Assembly (NCBI GenBank): GCA_000004985.1
Contig: GG738848.1
Reading direction: 5' to 3' (one strand)
Origin: Naegleria gruberi
Lineage: Eukaryota
DNA length: 64,000 nt
The notes below the pieces were generated by a model that saw only the letters and a list, made by a program, of their open reading frames with translations, ran no database searches and was not told where the DNA came from. Both the position numbers and the translations under genes were made by a program. Positions 3,357-51,410 of the stretch are shown piece by piece; position 1 is the first letter of the stretch, and every line of letters begins with the position of its first letter.

Positions 3357-4052
3357 ATGATCAAACCAATTAATATTGCACTATATTGTTTTCTAGCAAT
3401 ATTGCTAATGGTTATCAATCATTCACTTGCTCTCATTACTCCTCGTGTTACTCTTCCGAGAATGGTGAGCACAAAGCAAGGAGAGGAATCATGTTGTTTA
3501 CCTCGAAAGATTTCCCTTCAGGGCTCTATTTTCCAAGTAAGCTATGAAGGAAATATGACCAATACCTTCTTTGGTACATGGATACTCAATAATGATCTTG
3601 ATAATGGAAAGGCAAGATCTGATTTGGTGTCCTCCAACTCGGGACCGAATGTCACCACAGTATCATATAGAAATGGGCAAAATACTTTTACCTATACCTA
3701 CATTCCAGGTCAAACATGTTATTGTGTTAAAATAATCAATGCAGATTGGAATAGAAACTATTGCACAAGTAGTGGAAGACTTTTGGAACAATCGAATGTC
3801 GGATTCAATAAGGCAAACAAGTATGGCTTTGAGAATGTTGTGGCTGGAAACAAGTATATTGACGCTAGTTATTATTGGACTATACCAGTTGATCAAAAGA
3901 CATGTATCTTCGTGAGTAATGTTGAAGCAATTGCGCAATCAATTGGAACTTTCTCAAAGAATACTCAATTCTATGGAGCCAGTTATCAAGTAGATCCAAA
4001 ACTATTTGTTATTCCACAATATTGTCCACCAGAAAGTCAATGTCCACTTTAA
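3357..4052 (+). CDS. Secreted cysteine-rich hypothetical protein
   Basis: Hydrophobic signal peptide (MIKPINIALYCFLAILLMVINHSLA). About 10 Cys and several N-x-S/T sites. No recognised domain. Confidence 0.5.
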   Translation: MIKPINIALYCFLAILLMVINHSLALITPRVTLPRMVSTKQGEESCCLPRKISLQGSIFQVSYEGNMTNTFFGTWILNNDLDNGKARSDLVSSNSGPNVTTVSYRNGQNTFTYTYIPGQTCYCVKIINADWNRNYCTSSGRLLEQSNVGFNKANKYGFENVVAGNKYIDASYYWTIPVDQKTCIFVSNVEAIAQSIGTFSKNTQFYGASYQVDPKLFVIPQYCPPESQCPL

Positions 4053-26703: not shown

Positions 26704-28812
26704 ATGACTCAACATCACTGTGATTCTGTACTATCCACATCGTCACCCATATCATCCTCATTCTCTTCTGTGGAGTCTCTTGCCGGCAAGGAATTGGAAA
26801 ATCATTCTTCCTCCAGTGTTGGTGTTGGTGCCGAATCAGATATTCAATATAATAATAACCAACAAGTACAACATGAATCATTGTCTAATAACATGCATCC
26901 AAATCATCATCATAATACCACAACTACCACTAGTAATGTCGACGAGCCAATACATAGACCATCACTGAGGAAAAATAGTACAACGGACGAATTTTTTCTA
27001 CCACTTTCATATATTCACTTTTCAGGTTCTTCGAGTATACCTGATTATTGGAAACCATTCATGTCATTACAAAGCTTTTTATTGGTGGGAATTGTTTATT
27101 TTGCTTACTTTTTGAATATATTATACTGTTTTCATAGTGGTGGAATGACTAATGGACTGTTGATGTTGCTGGTGAATGCATCAACAGTGGGTGTTAATTT
27201 TTATTGGTTTTTCTATACTGTGAATCCAAATGTGAAAGTTTTGATTTTCAATTTATTAATGTTTACATGCAGATTTTCACTAGTTCATAACAAAATGATG
27301 GTTCTGCCCAGTGTCTTTTCAACAATAACTACAACTTCAAAGGGAAGTTTAAATAGTCCTTTTAAAGCATTCTTTCCAATAGTATACACATGTGCTCATT
27401 ATTTTATTTGGGGTATGGCAAAGTATGAATTTAACTTGATGGACATGGATTCACTGTTAGAGTTTTTATTTCATTATGGAACTTTGATAATTTCCGCATT
27501 GCTTTTTGGAATTTATAATTTATACTTGATGATTCAGTTATCATCAGAGTGTAAGGCAATGAAGGAGGCAACTAGAAAAATTCAAACAGCACTCGATGTT
27601 AAATCAGATTTCCTCAGTCACATCACTCACGAGTTTAGAGTCCCTTGTTTATCAAGTTTGGGTTCGATATCACTGCTTAAGGAAACTGAATTGGCACCAC
27701 AACAATTGGATTTCATTGCCACTATAGAATCTGCCAACAACATTTTGTTATCACTTATTGAGGACATTTTACTTTTTGCCAAGACAGAACATGATGTAAA
27801 TCATCCACCTAAGGAAACCAGCTACATATCTTTCAGCTTGTTCAACTCCATCAATTCACTCTACTCTCTCACAAAGGGCTATGCCACCAACTTTAAAGTG
27901 GATGTGAAATTTTACATTGATAAGAATATTCAAAATATGAAAGTTTTCTTCAATCACACCAAATTGCAGCAGTGCCTATCCAATCTTCTCACAAATGCCA
28001 TCAAGGCCTCAAAACCAAACGATACAGTGCAATTAAAATGTGAAATCCTAGGCAATGGCCAAAATGAGGGAGAAACCATTTTCCAATTCCAAGTTATTGA
28101 TCATGGAATTGGTATTCCTAAAGAAAGACAAAAAGATTTATTCGTTCCATTTGCTCAATTGCATCAAATCAATGAAGATTTGGTTCCTAGCTCTGGACTC
28201 GGATTGGTAACATGTCTCAATATTGTAAAATCCGTGAATGGAACAATTGATCTATTTTCTGAGAATGGAACAACAATATTTACTGTACAAATTCCAATGA
28301 AAGCTAGCAATATCGAACAAGAAGATATACTTAACTTTTTTGAAGAACCATCCAAACTGAATACTTCTCTCAAGAGACAACTACAAGTTCACACAGATTA
28401 TCTGTACAGAATGGAACAAGATAAGAAAATTTTAACAAACAGAGAATCTAATCCTAATAGCTCCTTACCAAAAATTATCCTAGCAGAAGACAATTTTGTC
28501 AACAGAAAAGTCCTCATTAAATTATTCGAAAGTTTGGGGCAGAGTTTAGATTCTGTGCGAGATGGAAAGGAATTAGTTGATTCATTCAAACCTGAACAAC
28601 ACAAATTAATTATCACCGATATGCACATGCCTATCCTTAATGGTTTAGAAGCATCCAAAGTTATCAGAGAAAAACATCCCAATTCAAAAATTGTAATGAT
28701 TACAGCTGATGCTCTAATTAATATTTCTTCCTATTTGGAAGTTGTTGATAAAGTTATCAGCAAACCTTGCAGCAAGGATGATTTGAAGAAAGTAATTAGT
28801 GAGTATCTCTAA
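26704..28812 (+). CDS. Hybrid sensor histidine kinase (multi-TM N-terminus, HisKA, HATPase_c, receiver)
   Basis: N-terminal hydrophobic segments (FLLVGIVYFAYFLNILY, LLMLLVNASTVGVNFYWFFY, ...). H-box SDFLSHITHEFRVP. N/G boxes LLTNAIKAS...IDHGIGIP...SGLGLVTCLNIV. Receiver ILAEDNFVNRKV...ITDMHMPILNG...K. 702 aa, single exon. Confidence 0.85.
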   Translation: MTQHHCDSVLSTSSPISSSFSSVESLAGKELENHSSSSVGVGAESDIQYNNNQQVQHESLSNNMHPNHHHNTTTTTSNVDEPIHRPSLRKNSTTDEFFLPLSYIHFSGSSSIPDYWKPFMSLQSFLLVGIVYFAYFLNILYCFHSGGMTNGLLMLLVNASTVGVNFYWFFYTVNPNVKVLIFNLLMFTCRFSLVHNKMMVLPSVFSTITTTSKGSLNSPFKAFFPIVYTCAHYFIWGMAKYEFNLMDMDSLLEFLFHYGTLIISALLFGIYNLYLMIQLSSECKAMKEATRKIQTALDVKSDFLSHITHEFRVPCLSSLGSISLLKETELAPQQLDFIATIESANNILLSLIEDILLFAKTEHDVNHPPKETSYISFSLFNSINSLYSLTKGYATNFKVDVKFYIDKNIQNMKVFFNHTKLQQCLSNLLTNAIKASKPNDTVQLKCEILGNGQNEGETIFQFQVIDHGIGIPKERQKDLFVPFAQLHQINEDLVPSSGLGLVTCLNIVKSVNGTIDLFSENGTTIFTVQIPMKASNIEQEDILNFFEEPSKLNTSLKRQLQVHTDYLYRMEQDKKILTNRESNPNSSLPKIILAEDNFVNRKVLIKLFESLGQSLDSVRDGKELVDSFKPEQHKLIITDMHMPILNGLEASKVIREKHPNSKIVMITADALINISSYLEVVDKVISKPCSKDDLKKVISEYL

Positions 28813-37440: not shown

Positions 37441-39338
37441 TTAGTGTAAATTACTAGTTCCATAATTTGAGTGGAATGAAGAAGTTGGACTTCCCATATC
37501 AACTCTAATATTGTTTACAAGTTGTTTTCGTTGCTTTTGTTCCAAAACGAATTGTTCTTGTTGAGAATCAATCATCTTCTTCATGTTGTAGAGTCTTCTC
37601 TTTTCCAAATCAGCTAACATGAGTTCGAGAGCAGCTCTGGAGACAGTTTCTTCATAGGCAGAAACTTCACTGAATTCCAAGGCATCCAAACCTTGTTCTT
37701 CCTCTTCACGAGTATTGACCAACAAGTGTGGATAGTATCTATTGATCATTCTAATTGAGATGGCAAGAATGAAGGTAATGAGTCCCGACCAGAAGAAGGC
37801 CAAACCAACACCAACCAATTGAGCCATTAATTGCCATCCATTACCATAGAAAACACCATCAGCTCCATCTGGATTGACTGAGGTTGTGGCACAGAAACCA
37901 ATGGCAATACTTCCAATAAGACCAGTAATACCGTGAACACTCTAATTTTAATTGTGAATGGTTCAAGTGAAATATAAATTACAGATTAAAACTCTATTTC
38001 AATAATACTTACGGAAACATCAAGAGCATCATCAATTCTGAGTTTATGCTTCAACAAGTAAATACCCAAATAACTGAAAGCACCAAGAATCAAACCAAGA
38101 ACCATAGCAGCATGAACAGTGATATAACCAGAAGCTGGTGTAATACCAGCAAGACCAGCAATACTACCATTTAACAAACTGACCAAGGATGGCTTCTTAT
38201 TCTTGATCCAGTGCATGATAAGCCAAACAACTGTTGATGTACAAGCAGCAGCTTGGGTATTGACAATGGCAGCAATGGCAACACTTGATGATGAGAGAGC
38301 ACTACCAGCATTGAATCCAAACCAACCCATCCACTATTTAATTCAAGTTAAAAAAATGAATTCACACTTTTTGTAAACTTACCAATCTATTAACGAGGTC
38401 AGTAAATATGAAATATTATAAAAATACTTACAAAGCAGCACCAATAGCAGCAAGTGGAAGATTAGATGGATGAGGTTCACCGTGGTGATCATCAAAATCT
38501 TTTCTTCTACCAAAAACAAGAGCACACACCAAAGCAGCAATACCTGATTGGACGTGAATGACAATACCACCAGCAAAATCTAAAGTATCCAATGGTTTAT
38601 GGGATAAGAAACCACCTCCCCAAATAATGTGAGCAACTGGGTAGTAAACCAAAAATTCCCAAATAAGAATGAAAGCAATATAAGCTAATTTGGTTTAGAG
38701 ATTGAAAAGTTTGAATGAAAAACATACCCCTCCATTTTAATCTTTCAGCAAAAGCACCTGTCATCAAAAGTGGTGTAATGCAAGCAAACCTATTTACATT
38801 GAAAACAAGTGTTTGTAAAAGATTGGTTCAATATATGTGAGAAATTATAATACACTTACATCATTTGGAAAATTGCAAAAGATGCATGTGGAATTGAGAG
38901 AGCATGTTGTGAACACTTATTCAAATCAACTCCAATGAATGCAATATAATCAAGACCACCAATAATACCACCTTGTGTTGGACCAAAAACAAGAGTGTAT
39001 CCAAATAAAATCCATGCCACAGCCAAAACTGCCAGACCAATCCAAATTTGACTGAAAATCGTCAAGGTTTCTTTCTTTCTACTCAGACCTGCTTCAAAGA
39101 AAGCCAAAGCACTCATCATGGCCAATACGAGAATTGATGAAACAGTAACCCAGGCGGTATCACCTATTATATAGCAATGGTCAACATCAAACAAGAAGTG
39201 AATTTTCATGATTATCCACACACAACAATCATCAAGATAACTTTAAATGACAATAAACATACCATCATCAATTAAACAATCCACATCAGGATTAAATCCT
39301 CCATTCACTATACGTTTAGCAGTTAATCCGGAAACCAT
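37441..39338 (-). CDS. amt: Ammonium transporter (Amt/MEP/Rh family), 7 exons including a 4-nt micro-exon
   Basis: Exons 39338..39263, 39163..38860 (GDTAWVTVSS...FAIFQM), 38789..38728 (MFACITPLLMTGAFAERLKWR), 38684..38432 (AYIAFILIWEFLVYYPVAHIIWGGGFL...DFAGGIVIHVQSGIAALV...PSNLPLAAIGAAL), 38386..38383 (ATTG), 38333..38013 (LWMGWFGFNAGSA...DDALDVS) and 37941..37441 (SVHGITGLIGS...). The phases sum to 1521 nt, 506 aa. Amt signature motifs are present. Confidence 0.7.
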
Positions 39339-49166: not shown

Positions 49167-51410
49167 TTACACATTTTTGAGAGGCGTATCCTGTATGTGT
49201 TCTTGTAAACTGTTGATAGCTTTCCACTCAATATATTGTTCTGTCCTTTGCAAACGTGAAAAAGTATCTCCAATATTGAACATGAGATCCAACATGATAA
49301 CTTTGTACAATTGTTGAATTGTCACACCACTTGCTCTTCGTGATGTGTTACCTCTTGGTGTTGCATCTTCCAGTGATACATTTTCCACTTGATTCGTCAG
49401 ATTTCTGCATGTTTCTACTAACTCTAAAAACTTTTCTTTGGTGCTATGTGAAATGTTAACTTCATACTTTGCGTAAGTTCTCACAAATTCCTCCTCAAAT
49501 TTCAACAAATCATTCAAGGAAACGGTCTTGTCCATTTGTGCAAAATTATTAGACCATTGCCTAATCTTTTCAAAGCACAGAACATTTTCTAAACTGTATT
49601 CATTTCTTGAGTATTCTGTCAATAATTCTCTGATGGAGGCATTGGTAGCCAAAAGATTCTCCAATTCACTTTGTTCTTTCTTTTCCACTCCTCTGAATCT
49701 AATCTTATTAACTATCTCCACAATCATTGAATTTCCTCCACAAATCATCAAGATACAAAAGCAGGCAACTGTATTGAGAAAACCACCAACTGGACCCAAA
49801 CTACCATCGATAGGTAATGCCAGTAAACCAATTACAATACCCAAAGCAATCAAAAAAATTAGGAAGAATGATATCAAATCAATTCTGATGTGGAATGGAT
49901 CGTCAAACAATAAGAATTTCATGATACCATCCTGCTTAATTTTCTTTCGATTCATAACCATATCAATGACAAGGGCTAACATGGCAATAAGGCAACCAAT
50001 AATGAAATAAGCAAAGAGATTGATGGTTCTGAAAATAACTGAAGTGCTACTGTCAGTAAAAAAGCAAAAAATACCATCAGATGATATTACAAGTGCCAGT
50101 CCAAATGAAAATAGTCCTGTGAAAACAAACCCAAATTTGGAAGAGGCCAGAAACCTGTGCATTTTCTTGTGGTTAGAAGTCGAAATGATTTGATACAAGT
50201 TTCTCAAGTACACAAATCGAATCACTGTAAATGTGTAAATGAGAACCCAATATATGGTAATAACCATGGCCACATAATGCACTGGAGCACTGCATACAAA
50301 CGACATGAACGATGTGAATAGAATAAACATGACCCAGCTCAGTAGTGGAATGTAAGGCACAAGCATACGTCTTTTGAGTGATGGCAATTTGAAACTTCCC
50401 GTAGAGAATAAACAAATAAAGTAAATGAGTGTGAGTGAAGTGTAAGCTATGATGAAATAGTCTCCATTAATGAAATTCTCTCCCAAACAGTTTGTAGTGG
50501 TACAAAAGTGACAAGTAGAAGGGAAGAGACGAGACATTACATAATCATTCGACCAATAAAGAGATGTCAAATTATTCAGTGCTAGAAATGATGCTTGGTT
50601 ACTTGTCAAGAGTGAAGTATCGTACTGAAGTGAAATATTCAATACATATTCCAATGTCTGAATATGCAACGGTGTGAACATGGAATACCCAGTTAAAAAC
50701 CTTAAAATTTCAGCATCTGCAATATTTGAATTTTCACAAGTCATTGGACTAATTTCAAAAACATTCTGAGATGCATTCACTCCCTCAATAGACATGCCAT
50801 TTCTATTCTTAATATAAACCATCGAGGGTATCAATGGAAATGGTTTGAAATCATACGAATTAATGAGACCATTTGCTGACTTGGTTTTCTGGTCTCCAAA
50901 ATAGTCCCTGTATCCTCTGACAAAGTACGTAAAATTGTACGTGTCCATCAACACTCCACCAAACGACTCAAATGGATTGATATTCCTTCCACAGGGCATC
51001 AATGTTGGATTGATGACAGTAGTGGAAATAATCCTGTCATGCGATGATGAAATATTGTTGAATGAGAGCCACTTGTTGAAATATCGGAGGTTATCTTGCT
51101 GGGATACTCCAATAGCCACTTGTTGATTGGTGCCAATAATCTGATTCTTCCCCAGGAATTGAACCAATTCATTGATGGTTGAATTTGACGAGGAGAAATT
51201 TGCGGCCAGAGGAGAATTGACCGAAACGAAGAGAGTCAAGAATGATTTCACGCCAACAATGATATCCTTCGCTATCAAATCTCTAACATCCACCAGAGAA
51301 ATCCCATCACCATTAGTGGCAGTGGCCAGCACAGTGCAAAGCAATGTTGGTGATGAACTCACAACCAACAAGACGAGTAGCAGAAAACCCACAAAAAACG
51401 GTGGGCGCAT
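49167..51410 (-). CDS. Signal-peptide, large ectodomain, 7TM and C-terminal RGS domain protein (receptor-like RGS)
   Basis: Signal peptide MRPPFFVGFLLLVLLVVSSSP. About 320-aa N-glycosylation-rich ectodomain. Seven hydrophobic helices (FIIAYTSLTLIYFICLF ... TVACFCILMICGGNSMIV). RGS box NEYSLENVLCFEKIRQW...FEEEFVRTYAKYEVNIS. 747 aa, single exon. Confidence 0.65.
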   Translation of the reverse strand: MRPPFFVGFLLLVLLVVSSSPTLLCTVLATATNGDGISLVDVRDLIAKDIIVGVKSFLTLFVSVNSPLAANFSSSNSTINELVQFLGKNQIIGTNQQVAIGVSQQDNLRYFNKWLSFNNISSSHDRIISTTVINPTLMPCGRNINPFESFGGVLMDTYNFTYFVRGYRDYFGDQKTKSANGLINSYDFKPFPLIPSMVYIKNRNGMSIEGVNASQNVFEISPMTCENSNIADAEILRFLTGYSMFTPLHIQTLEYVLNISLQYDTSLLTSNQASFLALNNLTSLYWSNDYVMSRLFPSTCHFCTTTNCLGENFINGDYFIIAYTSLTLIYFICLFSTGSFKLPSLKRRMLVPYIPLLSWVMFILFTSFMSFVCSAPVHYVAMVITIYWVLIYTFTVIRFVYLRNLYQIISTSNHKKMHRFLASSKFGFVFTGLFSFGLALVISSDGIFCFFTDSSTSVIFRTINLFAYFIIGCLIAMLALVIDMVMNRKKIKQDGIMKFLLFDDPFHIRIDLISFFLIFLIALGIVIGLLALPIDGSLGPVGGFLNTVACFCILMICGGNSMIVEIVNKIRFRGVEKKEQSELENLLATNASIRELLTEYSRNEYSLENVLCFEKIRQWSNNFAQMDKTVSLNDLLKFEEEFVRTYAKYEVNISHSTKEKFLELVETCRNLTNQVENVSLEDATPRGNTSRRASGVTIQQLYKVIMLDLMFNIGDTFSRLQRTEQYIEWKAINSLQEHIQDTPLKNV

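What the first reader, a model, noticed from the sequence alone, without database searches (positions are those of the whole stretch)
38383..38386. Candidate 4-nt micro-exon (ATTG) in the ammonium transporter gene
Exon 4 ends ...GCT GCT TT|GTAAGT, and the next large exon begins TAAATAG|TGG ATG GGT TGG (WMGWFGFNAGSA). Joining them directly breaks the frame. Between them lies AATAG|ATTG|GTAAGTTT, a perfect acceptor and GTAAGT donor flanking 4 nt. Including ATTG restores the frame and yields ...AIGAAL-L-WMGWFGFNAGSA, which matches the Amt consensus (G.LLW.GWFGFN). A 4-nt exon would be at the lower limit of what spliceosomes use.
Basis: seen in the sequence. Interest (0 to 1): 0.6.

Follow-up and report, generated by a model that had tools for sequence, protein, structure and literature searches.

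The report
Real 4-nt exon in Naegleria AmtA
The four bases ATTG are a real, conserved exon in the ammonium-transporter gene of the amoeba Naegleria gruberi; the reference gene model for this species already includes it, but the public model for the brain-eating relative N. fowleri misses it.

Summary
On the minus strand, exon 4 ends ...GCT GCT TT at 38432. ATTG (38386-38383) lies between a 45-nt and a 49-nt GTAAGT...TAG intron, and exon 5 starts with TGG ATG GGT at 38333. Only inclusion of ATTG gives AALLWMGWFGFNAGS, and LLW is invariant in 15 homologues.

The window is Naegleria gruberi NEG-M, not a dictyostelid.

AG|ATTG|GTAWGT is unchanged in N. fowleri, N. lovaniensis and a gruberi-like lineage, although the flanking introns have diverged to randomness and differ in length. 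In another Naegleria lineage the second intron is absent and ATTG is fused to TGGATGG. Cavenderia and Balamuthia have the uninterrupted sequence. Willaertia has one intron 3 nt further downstream. The gene is under purifying selection (dN/dS about 0.1).

The reference protein XP_002682064.1 and N. lovaniensis XP_044553058.1 already contain LLW, so the exon is already annotated. N. fowleri XP_044557184.1 skips it and loses LLWMGWFGFNAGS.

No cDNA could be examined. Exons of 1-3 nt are known elsewhere, so 4 nt is not the lower limit. This is a real but ordinary, already annotated feature; the useful by-products are two annotation errors.

The parts
37441..39338 (-). Complete AmtA coding region as reconstructed here: 7 exons, 506 codons plus a TAA stop at 37443-37441.
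   Evidence: Pfam PF00909, E=8e-102. Residues 26-506 are identical to XP_002682064.1.
39263..39338 (-). Exon 1 (MVSGLTAKRIVNGGFNPDVDCLIDD). It is not part of the reference model, which starts at the ATG at 39209 inside intron 1.
   Evidence: This N-terminus is conserved in N. fowleri, N. lovaniensis, L008 and Willaertia.
38860..39163 (-). Exon 2 (304 nt).
38728..38789 (-). Exon 3 (62 nt).
38432..38684 (-). Exon 4 (253 nt), ending ...GCT GCT TT. The following intron is in phase 2.
   Evidence: The exon length is the same (253 nt) in N. fowleri, N. lovaniensis and L008.
38387..38431 (-). Intron A, 45 nt: GTAAGT...TACTGAC...AATAG. TACTGAC at 38404-38398 looks like a branch site; this was read by eye and not tested.
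   Evidence: An intron at this position is present in all five Naegleria lineages, with lengths of 45-96 nt.
38383..38386 (-). Micro-exon ATTG. It supplies the third base of Leu232 (TT|A) and all of Leu233 (TTG).
38334..38382 (-). Intron B, 49 nt, phase 0: GTAAGT...TTTAAC...AAATAG.
   Evidence: It is present in the N. gruberi, L006, N. fowleri and N. lovaniensis lineages and absent in L008/L009.
38013..38333 (-). Exon 5 (321 nt), starting TGG ATG GGT TGG (WMGWFGFNAGS, a pore-lining motif).
   Evidence: The alignment to A. fulgidus Amt-1 (2B2F) has no gap across IGAALLWFGWFGFN.
37441..37941 (-). Last exon (166 codons plus stop).

Best explanation
ATTG (38386-38383, minus strand) is a constitutive 4-nt internal coding exon of the Naegleria gruberi AmtA ammonium-transporter gene. 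It lies between two very short, fully canonical spliceosomal introns of 45 and 49 nt. Removing both introns joins GCT GCT TT + ATTG + TGG ATG to encode A-A-L-L-W-M, immediately upstream of the conserved WFGFNAGS pore motif. Shown here: the frame requirement, the conservation of the residues, the conservation of the exon and its splice sites across Naegleria species, and its fusion to exon 5 in one lineage and in the outgroups. Inferred, not shown: each mini-intron is recognised on its own by intron definition, and the two are removed one after the other. The reason is that a 3' splice site and a 5' splice site only 4 nt apart cannot both hold full splicing complexes at once. After the first removal, ATTG is simply the end of a normal-sized exon.
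For: Frame: the CDS is open only when ATTG is included. Every single-intron alternative that keeps the frame either deletes invariant residues or needs a GC or AT-AC site. Residues: L232, L233 and W234 are invariant in 15 homologues from Willaertia to archaea, and the alignment to the solved Amt-1 2B2F is gap-free. Comparative DNA: AG|ATTG|GTAAGT (GTATGT in L006) is identical in NEG-M, L005, L006, N. fowleri (L003/L004) and N. lovaniensis (L007). The flanking introns differ in length (45/48/96/82 nt and 49/57/62/53 nt) and are no more alike than shuffled sequence (z from -1.4 to 2.2). L008/L009 have only intron A followed by ATTGTGGATGGG. Cavenderia and Balamuthia have uninterrupted coding sequence for AALLWMGW; in Cavenderia it reads GCTGCTTTATTGTGGATGGG. 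Willaertia reads GCT GCT TTA TTA TGG|intron|ATG. Selection: dN/dS is 0.07-0.11 with dS about 1, and all four reconstructed ORFs are intact. Public models: XP_002682064.1 (N. gruberi) matches my model at 481/481 residues including LLW. XP_044553058.1 (N. lovaniensis) is reproduced exactly only when the 4-nt exon L007:2754-2757 is included, and that annotation used BRAKER1 with RNA-seq (PMC6125883). Intron size: the same gene has a 43-nt intron.
Against: No cDNA, EST or RNA-seq read was seen. No spliced junction was found in the metagenome collection, and no full-length transcript-derived protein of this species was found. The public N. fowleri model omits the exon; this looks like a prediction error but is formally a competing model. 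The order of intron removal and the frequency of exon skipping are unknown. The branch sites were read by eye.
Confidence: 0.93

Rival explanations
1. The 98 nt are one intron and the gene is frameshifted. It would then be a pseudogene, or the reference assembly has a base error.
For: A direct exon 4-exon 5 join is out of frame and ends in a stop codon about 60 codons later.
Against: The same architecture appears in independent assemblies: L005 (ENA metagenome), L006, L003/L004 and L007. The ORFs are intact and dN/dS is 0.07-0.11. ATTG and its two splice sites are conserved inside otherwise random introns.
Confidence: 0.02
2. The real mRNA uses one larger intron, from the exon-4 donor to a cryptic acceptor inside exon 5, as in the public N. 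fowleri model. This gives ...GAAF|ALSSS... and removes LLWMGWFGFNAGS.
For: XP_044557184.1 (N. fowleri) is exactly this model on L003, with a 194-nt intron at 3836-4029. The equivalent GT(38431)...AG(38302) intron keeps the frame in N. gruberi.
Against: It deletes 13 residues, among them several invariant in all 15 homologues (L, L, W, W, G, F, N, G, S). By published AmtB structures (my recollection) these include the pore Trp, Phe and Ser. It leaves the conservation of AG|ATTG|GTAAGT unexplained. The L008, Cavenderia, Balamuthia and Willaertia genes encode the full motif contiguously. The N. gruberi and N. lovaniensis models include the motif.
Confidence: 0.03
3. The micro-exon is real but alternatively used. 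Skipping it gives a frameshifted, prematurely terminated transcript, which would act as a splicing-level switch on transporter expression. This is compatible with the main explanation.
For: Skipping introduces a premature stop. Very short exons are prone to skipping in other systems (PMC4674806). Willaertia annotates two isoforms of the orthologue, differing by a retained intron elsewhere in the gene.
Against: There are no data on it. Both flanking introns have consensus GTAAGT donors and TAG acceptors. No special RNA structure was found (z=0.35).
Confidence: 0.15

Closest known systems
Ultra-short plant micro-exons: the 1-nt exons of APC11 and VPS55, and the catalogue of exons of 15 nt or less (PMC4674806, PMC8831610)
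   Same: These are constitutive coding exons of a few nucleotides flanked by strong GTRAGT donors. They are conserved across species, are fused to a neighbouring exon in lineages that lost an intron, and are often missed by annotation pipelines, which yields proteins lacking conserved residues. All of this is seen here.
   Different: The host here is a heterolobosean amoeba with tiny flanking introns (45-96 nt). RNA-level validation exists for the plant cases but not for this one.
The 1-nt exon needed to assemble Fusarium CYP621A (PMC12940212)
   Same: A micro-exon is inferred because only its inclusion restores a conserved protein.
   Different: It is fungal, 1 nt long, and in a different gene family. 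I read only the abstract.
Two-step removal of introns around small exons (potato invertase 9-nt exon) and the combined intron-definition/recursive model, as discussed in PMC4674806
   Same: This is the proposed mechanism here: the two introns cannot be spliced at the same time, so they are removed one after the other.
   Different: The order and the intermediates have not been observed for this gene. This is not zero-length recursive splicing, because the 4 nt are kept in the mRNA.
Amt/MEP ammonium channels with solved structures (A. fulgidus Amt-1 2B2F; E. coli AmtB 1U7G, 1XQF, 2NMR)
   Same: The match covers the full-length Pfam PF00909 domain. The query residues IGAALLWMGWFGFNAGS align without a gap to IGAALLWFGWFGFNGGS of Amt-1.
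   Different: The Naegleria protein has a C-terminal tail of about 75 residues that is specific to the lineage. The prokaryotic genes have no introns.

Membership tests
Amt/MEP/Rh ammonium transporter family (Pfam PF00909) | Full-length match to the family profile above the curated cut-off | tested here: met
   341.3 bits against a cut-off of 23.2; residues 29-432 cover profile positions 1-396 of 399. PDB Amt-1 E=1.2e-84 and AmtB E=5e-79.
Amt/MEP/Rh ammonium transporter family (Pfam PF00909) | Conserved pore and gate residues (DFAGG Asp, twin His, WFGFNxGS Trp/Phe/Ser) | tested here: met
   D183, H166, H343, W237, F240 and S244 are invariant columns in the 15-sequence alignment. Mapping them to AmtB D160, H168, H318, W212, F215 and S219 is from my memory of the published structures and was not computed.
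Micro-exon (internal coding exon of 15 nt or less) | Bounded by a canonical 3' splice site (AG) and 5' splice site (GT), each belonging to a complete intron | tested here: met
   AATAG|ATTG|GTAAGT. The introns are 45 and 49 nt with GTAAGT...TAG ends.
Micro-exon (internal coding exon of 15 nt or less) | Inclusion is required for the reading frame and restores conserved residues | tested here: met
Micro-exon (internal coding exon of 15 nt or less) | Conserved in orthologues, or fused to a neighbouring exon where an intron is missing | tested here: met
   Conserved in four two-intron lineages and fused in L008/L009. Uninterrupted in Cavenderia and Balamuthia.
Micro-exon (internal coding exon of 15 nt or less) | Presence in mature mRNA shown by cDNA or RNA-seq junction reads | not testable with these tools
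   No read-level data were available. The only indirect support is that the N. lovaniensis model from an RNA-seq-guided BRAKER1 run contains the exon and that the N. gruberi reference protein contains LLW.
Zero-length recursive splice site (ratchet point) | The 3' and 5' splice sites are directly juxtaposed (AG|GTAAGT) and nothing is retained in the mRNA | tested here: not met
   Four nucleotides separate the two sites, and they must be retained to keep the frame.
Pseudogene | Disrupted ORF and relaxed selection | tested here: not met
   The ORFs are intact in four species when the exon is included, and dN/dS is 0.07-0.11.

The most novel reading that the evidence does not exclude
The 4-nt exon forces an obligatory two-step, ordered splicing pathway in a deep-branching eukaryote that relies on intron definition. 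Its skipping, which introduces a premature stop, would be used as an on/off control of ammonium-transporter expression. The exact retention of ATTG at three potentially synonymous positions across Naegleria, despite dS of about 1, would then reflect a splicing constraint rather than a coding one.
Probability: 0.12. Interest if true: 0.5.

Novelty: already known. Interest (0 to 1): 0.3.

Why it matters
The feature itself matters little. Ultra-short exons are a documented phenomenon, and this one is already built into the N. gruberi and N. lovaniensis gene models.

The practical value lies in three by-products:

1. The public N. fowleri model FDP41_009373 lacks 13 residues, including the pore motif, because the exon was missed. 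Ammonia transporters are discussed as up-regulated in mouse-passaged N. fowleri (PMC8296547), although I did not check whether this particular gene is among them.
2. The N. gruberi reference model probably has the wrong N-terminus.
3. The gene offers a compact natural series for studying how a micro-exon arises and disappears, and how two introns 4 nt apart are spliced in an organism with very short introns. The series comprises no intron, intron A only, introns A and B, and a single intron shifted by 3 nt.

Tried and rejected
- P0001 and P0347 are not on record there.
- **Exact-sequence guesses.** Guesses for split or alternative N. gruberi models (232 aa, 272 aa, and three single-intron variants) are not in the collection.
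- **A wrong impression, later corrected.** The first protein search showed nothing above 74% identity. That wrongly suggested the gene was unannotated in Naegleria. In fact the Naegleria models sit in clusters represented by short ORF fragments, and they surfaced only through cluster listings.
- **Metagenome scans.** A scan for the spliced junction and a scan for the exon-4 donor each gave 0 hits.
- **Run accession.** A literature search for ERR1078381 gave 0 hits.
- **RNA structure.** Folding the region shows no unusual structure (z=0.35), so a structure-assisted splicing idea has no support.
- **My spliced aligner.** It absorbed ATTG into GTAA at the donor. This is an artefact, because that reading creates TTG TAA, a stop.
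- **Placing L008.** A quartet count could not place L008 relative to N. gruberi and N. lovaniensis (6, 7 and 2 sites). Whether intron B was lost in L008 or gained in the other lineages is therefore unresolved.
- **Origin by duplication.** No similarity between intron A and intron B was evident by eye beyond the GTAAGT consensus (sequences; A-versus-B similarity was not scored), so an origin by tandem duplication is unsupported.

Full report
**What is in the sequence.** The gene lies on the minus strand.
- Reading the reverse complement of 39420-37400, exon 4 ends ...GGT GCT GCT TT at 38432 and is followed by GTAAGT.
- Forty-five bases later comes AATAG|ATTG|GTAAGT, which places ATTG at 38386-38383.
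- Forty-nine bases after that, TAAATAG|TGG ATG GGT TGG opens the next exon at 38333.
- I assembled seven exons: 39338-39263, 39163-38860, 38789-38728, 38684-38432, 38386-38383, 38333-38013 and 37941-37441.
- They give an open CDS of 506 codons with introns of 99, 70, 43, 45, 49 and 71 nt, all GTAAGT or GTATGT ... TAG.
- Without ATTG the frame shifts after ...AIGAA and reaches a stop codon about 60 codons later.

**Organism and gene.**
- The product is a full-length Amt/MEP transporter (PF00909, 341 bits). Its best solved relative is A. fulgidus Amt-1 (2B2F, E=1.2e-84), and IGAALLWMGWFGFNAGS aligns to IGAALLWFGWFGFNGGS without a gap.
- The window is not dictyostelid. A neighbouring 747-codon ORF (49170-51410, minus strand) is 100% identical to Naegleria gruberi NEG-M XP_002682068.1.
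- The window's GC content of about 33% matches the published 33% for that genome (PMC8296547).

**Alternatives within the sequence.**
- I enumerated every single GT-AG, GC-AG or AT-AC intron around the junction that keeps the frame free of stop codons.
- Each one either deletes invariant residues (for example GT 38431...AG 38302 removes LLWMGWFGFNAGS) or needs a weak GC donor and still removes residues.
- In an alignment of 15 homologues, from Willaertia to a thaumarchaeon, L232, L233 and W234 are invariant and there is no gap at the junction.
- AGNNNNGTAAGT occurs once in the whole window on both strands, at this site. The expectation for 128 kb of strand is 1.22, so by my arithmetic about 1e-3 for the 98-nt gap.

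**Comparative DNA, the strongest evidence.** I retrieved the orthologous loci through short ORF fragments and cluster listings.

| Lineage (locus) | Structure at the junction |
|---|---|
| N. gruberi NEG-M (window) | TT\|45-nt intron\|ATTG\|49-nt intron\|TGG |
| Near-identical N. gruberi strain in a metagenome (L005) | Identical to the window |
| Lineage about 91% identical in exons (L006) | TT\|48 nt\|ATTG\|57 nt (GTATGT donor)\|TGG |
| N. fowleri (L003/L004) | TT\|96 nt\|ATTG\|62 nt\|TGG |
| N. lovaniensis (L007) | TT\|82 nt\|ATTG\|53 nt\|TGG |
| Fifth Naegleria lineage (L008/L009) | Intron A only, 59 nt, then ATTGTGGATGGGTTGG: the 4 nt are contiguous with exon 5 |
| Willaertia magna (L002) | GCT GCT TTA TTA TGG\|51-nt intron\|ATG GGT: one intron, 3 nt downstream of Naegleria intron B |
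| Cavenderia fasciculata (L010) | Uninterrupted GCTGCTTTATTGTGGATGGG |
| Balamuthia (L011) | Uninterrupted coding sequence for AALLWMGW |

- Outside the splice-site consensus, the intron interiors are no more similar between lineages than shuffled sequence (z from -1.4 to 2.2).
- The reconstructed CDSs of N. gruberi, N. fowleri, N. lovaniensis and L008 are all open. They give dN/dS of 0.07-0.11 at dS of about 1, which excludes a pseudogene.

**Status in public annotation.**
- N. gruberi: the reference protein XP_002682064.1 / EFC49320.1 ('ammonium transporter AmtA', 496 aa) is identical to my model over the last 481 residues, including AALLWMGW. From this DNA that sequence can only be produced with the ATTG exon, so the exon has been in the reference annotation since the genome release.
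- N. lovaniensis: XP_044553058.1 is reproduced exactly by eight exons, including the 4-nt exon L007:2754-2757. That annotation was made with BRAKER1 using RNA-seq (PMC6125883), which is indirect RNA support.
- N. fowleri: XP_044557184.1 (FDP41_009373, 509 aa) is reproduced exactly on L003 by skipping the exon and using a cryptic acceptor, with a 194-nt intron. It reads ...GAAF|ALSSS... and lacks LLWMGWFGFNAGS. I regard this as a misannotation of the kind described for plants (PMC8831610).
- The first homology search hid all three Naegleria models, because their clusters are represented by short ORF fragments.

**How it most likely works.**
- Shown: both introns carry complete consensus signals of their own. 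Their sizes are within the range used elsewhere in this gene (43 nt). Intron A also functions in a lineage where ATTG is part of a long exon (L008).
- Inferred from general splicing knowledge and the discussion in PMC4674806: exon definition cannot operate on 4 nt, and complexes on a 3' splice site and a 5' splice site only 4 nt apart would clash.
- The two mini-introns are therefore probably recognised by intron definition and removed one after the other. After the first step, ATTG is the terminal 4 nt of an ordinary exon.
- The order is unknown. No helpful RNA structure is predicted (z=0.35). Whether the exon is ever skipped, which would give a premature stop, is untested.

**Evolution.**
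- In N. gruberi CDS coordinates, the intron positions are:

| Lineage | Intron positions |
|---|---|
| NEG-M | 76, 380, 442, 695, 699, 1020 |
| N. fowleri and N. lovaniensis | The same, plus 151 |
| L006 | 76, 151, 380, 695, 699 (no intron at 442; the contig ends before 1020) |
| L008 | 151, 442, 695 |
| Willaertia | 76, 250, 273, 442, 486, 702, 902, 1020 |

- Intron 695 is present in all five Naegleria lineages examined.
- L008 lacks introns 76 and 1020, which Willaertia shares, so L008 has lost introns. Loss of intron 699 in L008 is the more likely reading.
- The position of L008 is nevertheless unresolved (quartet counts 6, 7 and 2).
- Whether Willaertia's intron at 702 is homologous to Naegleria's at 699 cannot be decided.

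**Comparison with what is known, and verdict.**
- This is an ultra-short constitutive micro-exon. It is the same kind of feature as the validated 1-nt exons of plant APC11 and VPS55 and the Fusarium CYP621A case (PMC4674806, PMC8831610, PMC12940212), so 4 nt is rare but not a lower limit.
- It is not a zero-length recursive splice site, because the 4 nt are retained.
- I found no paper that discusses micro-exons in Naegleria. Even so, this instance is already encoded in the reference model, so I rate it 'already known' and of modest interest.
- The by-products worth passing on are the N. fowleri model that lacks the pore motif, the probably wrong N-terminus of the N. gruberi model, and the intron turnover in this gene.

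**Limits.** No read-level RNA data could be examined. Two scans of the metagenome collection, one for the spliced junction and one for the donor context, found nothing. The branch sites and the mapping of residues to AmtB numbering rest on inspection and memory, not on computation.

Noticed in passing
window 39209 versus 39338-39263 (minus strand): The N. gruberi reference AmtA model XP_002682064.1 starts at an ATG inside intron 1 (MKIHFLFDVDHCYII...). An upstream exon encoding MVSGLTAKRIVNGGFNPDVDCLIDD, joined by a GTATGT...TAG intron, is conserved in N. fowleri, N. lovaniensis, L008 and Willaertia. The reference N-terminus is probably wrong.
   Followed up: partly
L003 3836-4029 (N. fowleri DNA): The public N. 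fowleri protein XP_044557184.1 (FDP41_009373) equals a model that skips the 4-nt exon and uses a cryptic acceptor inside exon 5. This deletes LLWMGWFGFNAGS, and the corrected protein would be 521 aa.
   Followed up: yes
CDS positions 76, 151, 380, 442, 699 and 1020 in the window, L003, L006, L007 and L008: Introns are gained or lost between closely related Naegleria lineages within this single gene. The intron at CDS 151 is absent in NEG-M and L005 but present in the other four lineages. The intron at 442 is absent in L006. L008 lacks four introns.
   Followed up: partly
L002 4021-4071 (Willaertia magna): Willaertia has a single intron after the TGG codon, exactly 3 nt downstream of Naegleria intron B, and no intron at the position of intron A. 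This is either intron sliding or an independent gain. The Willaertia annotation also lists an isoform with a retained 60-nt intron (P0125).
   Followed up: partly
Homologous-protein output: Full-length Naegleria proteins were hidden because their 90% clusters are represented by ORF fragments of 107-128 aa. The returned hits also seemed limited to lengths close to the query length. A missing hit in this tool does not show that a protein is unannotated.
   Followed up: yes
window 26704-28812 (+) and 49170-51410 (-): Two neighbouring long intron-free ORFs. By eye, one looks like a hybrid histidine kinase with a receiver domain. The other is a multi-pass membrane protein with an RGS-like C-terminus and equals NAEGRDRAFT_45907. 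Neither was analysed further.
   Followed up: no
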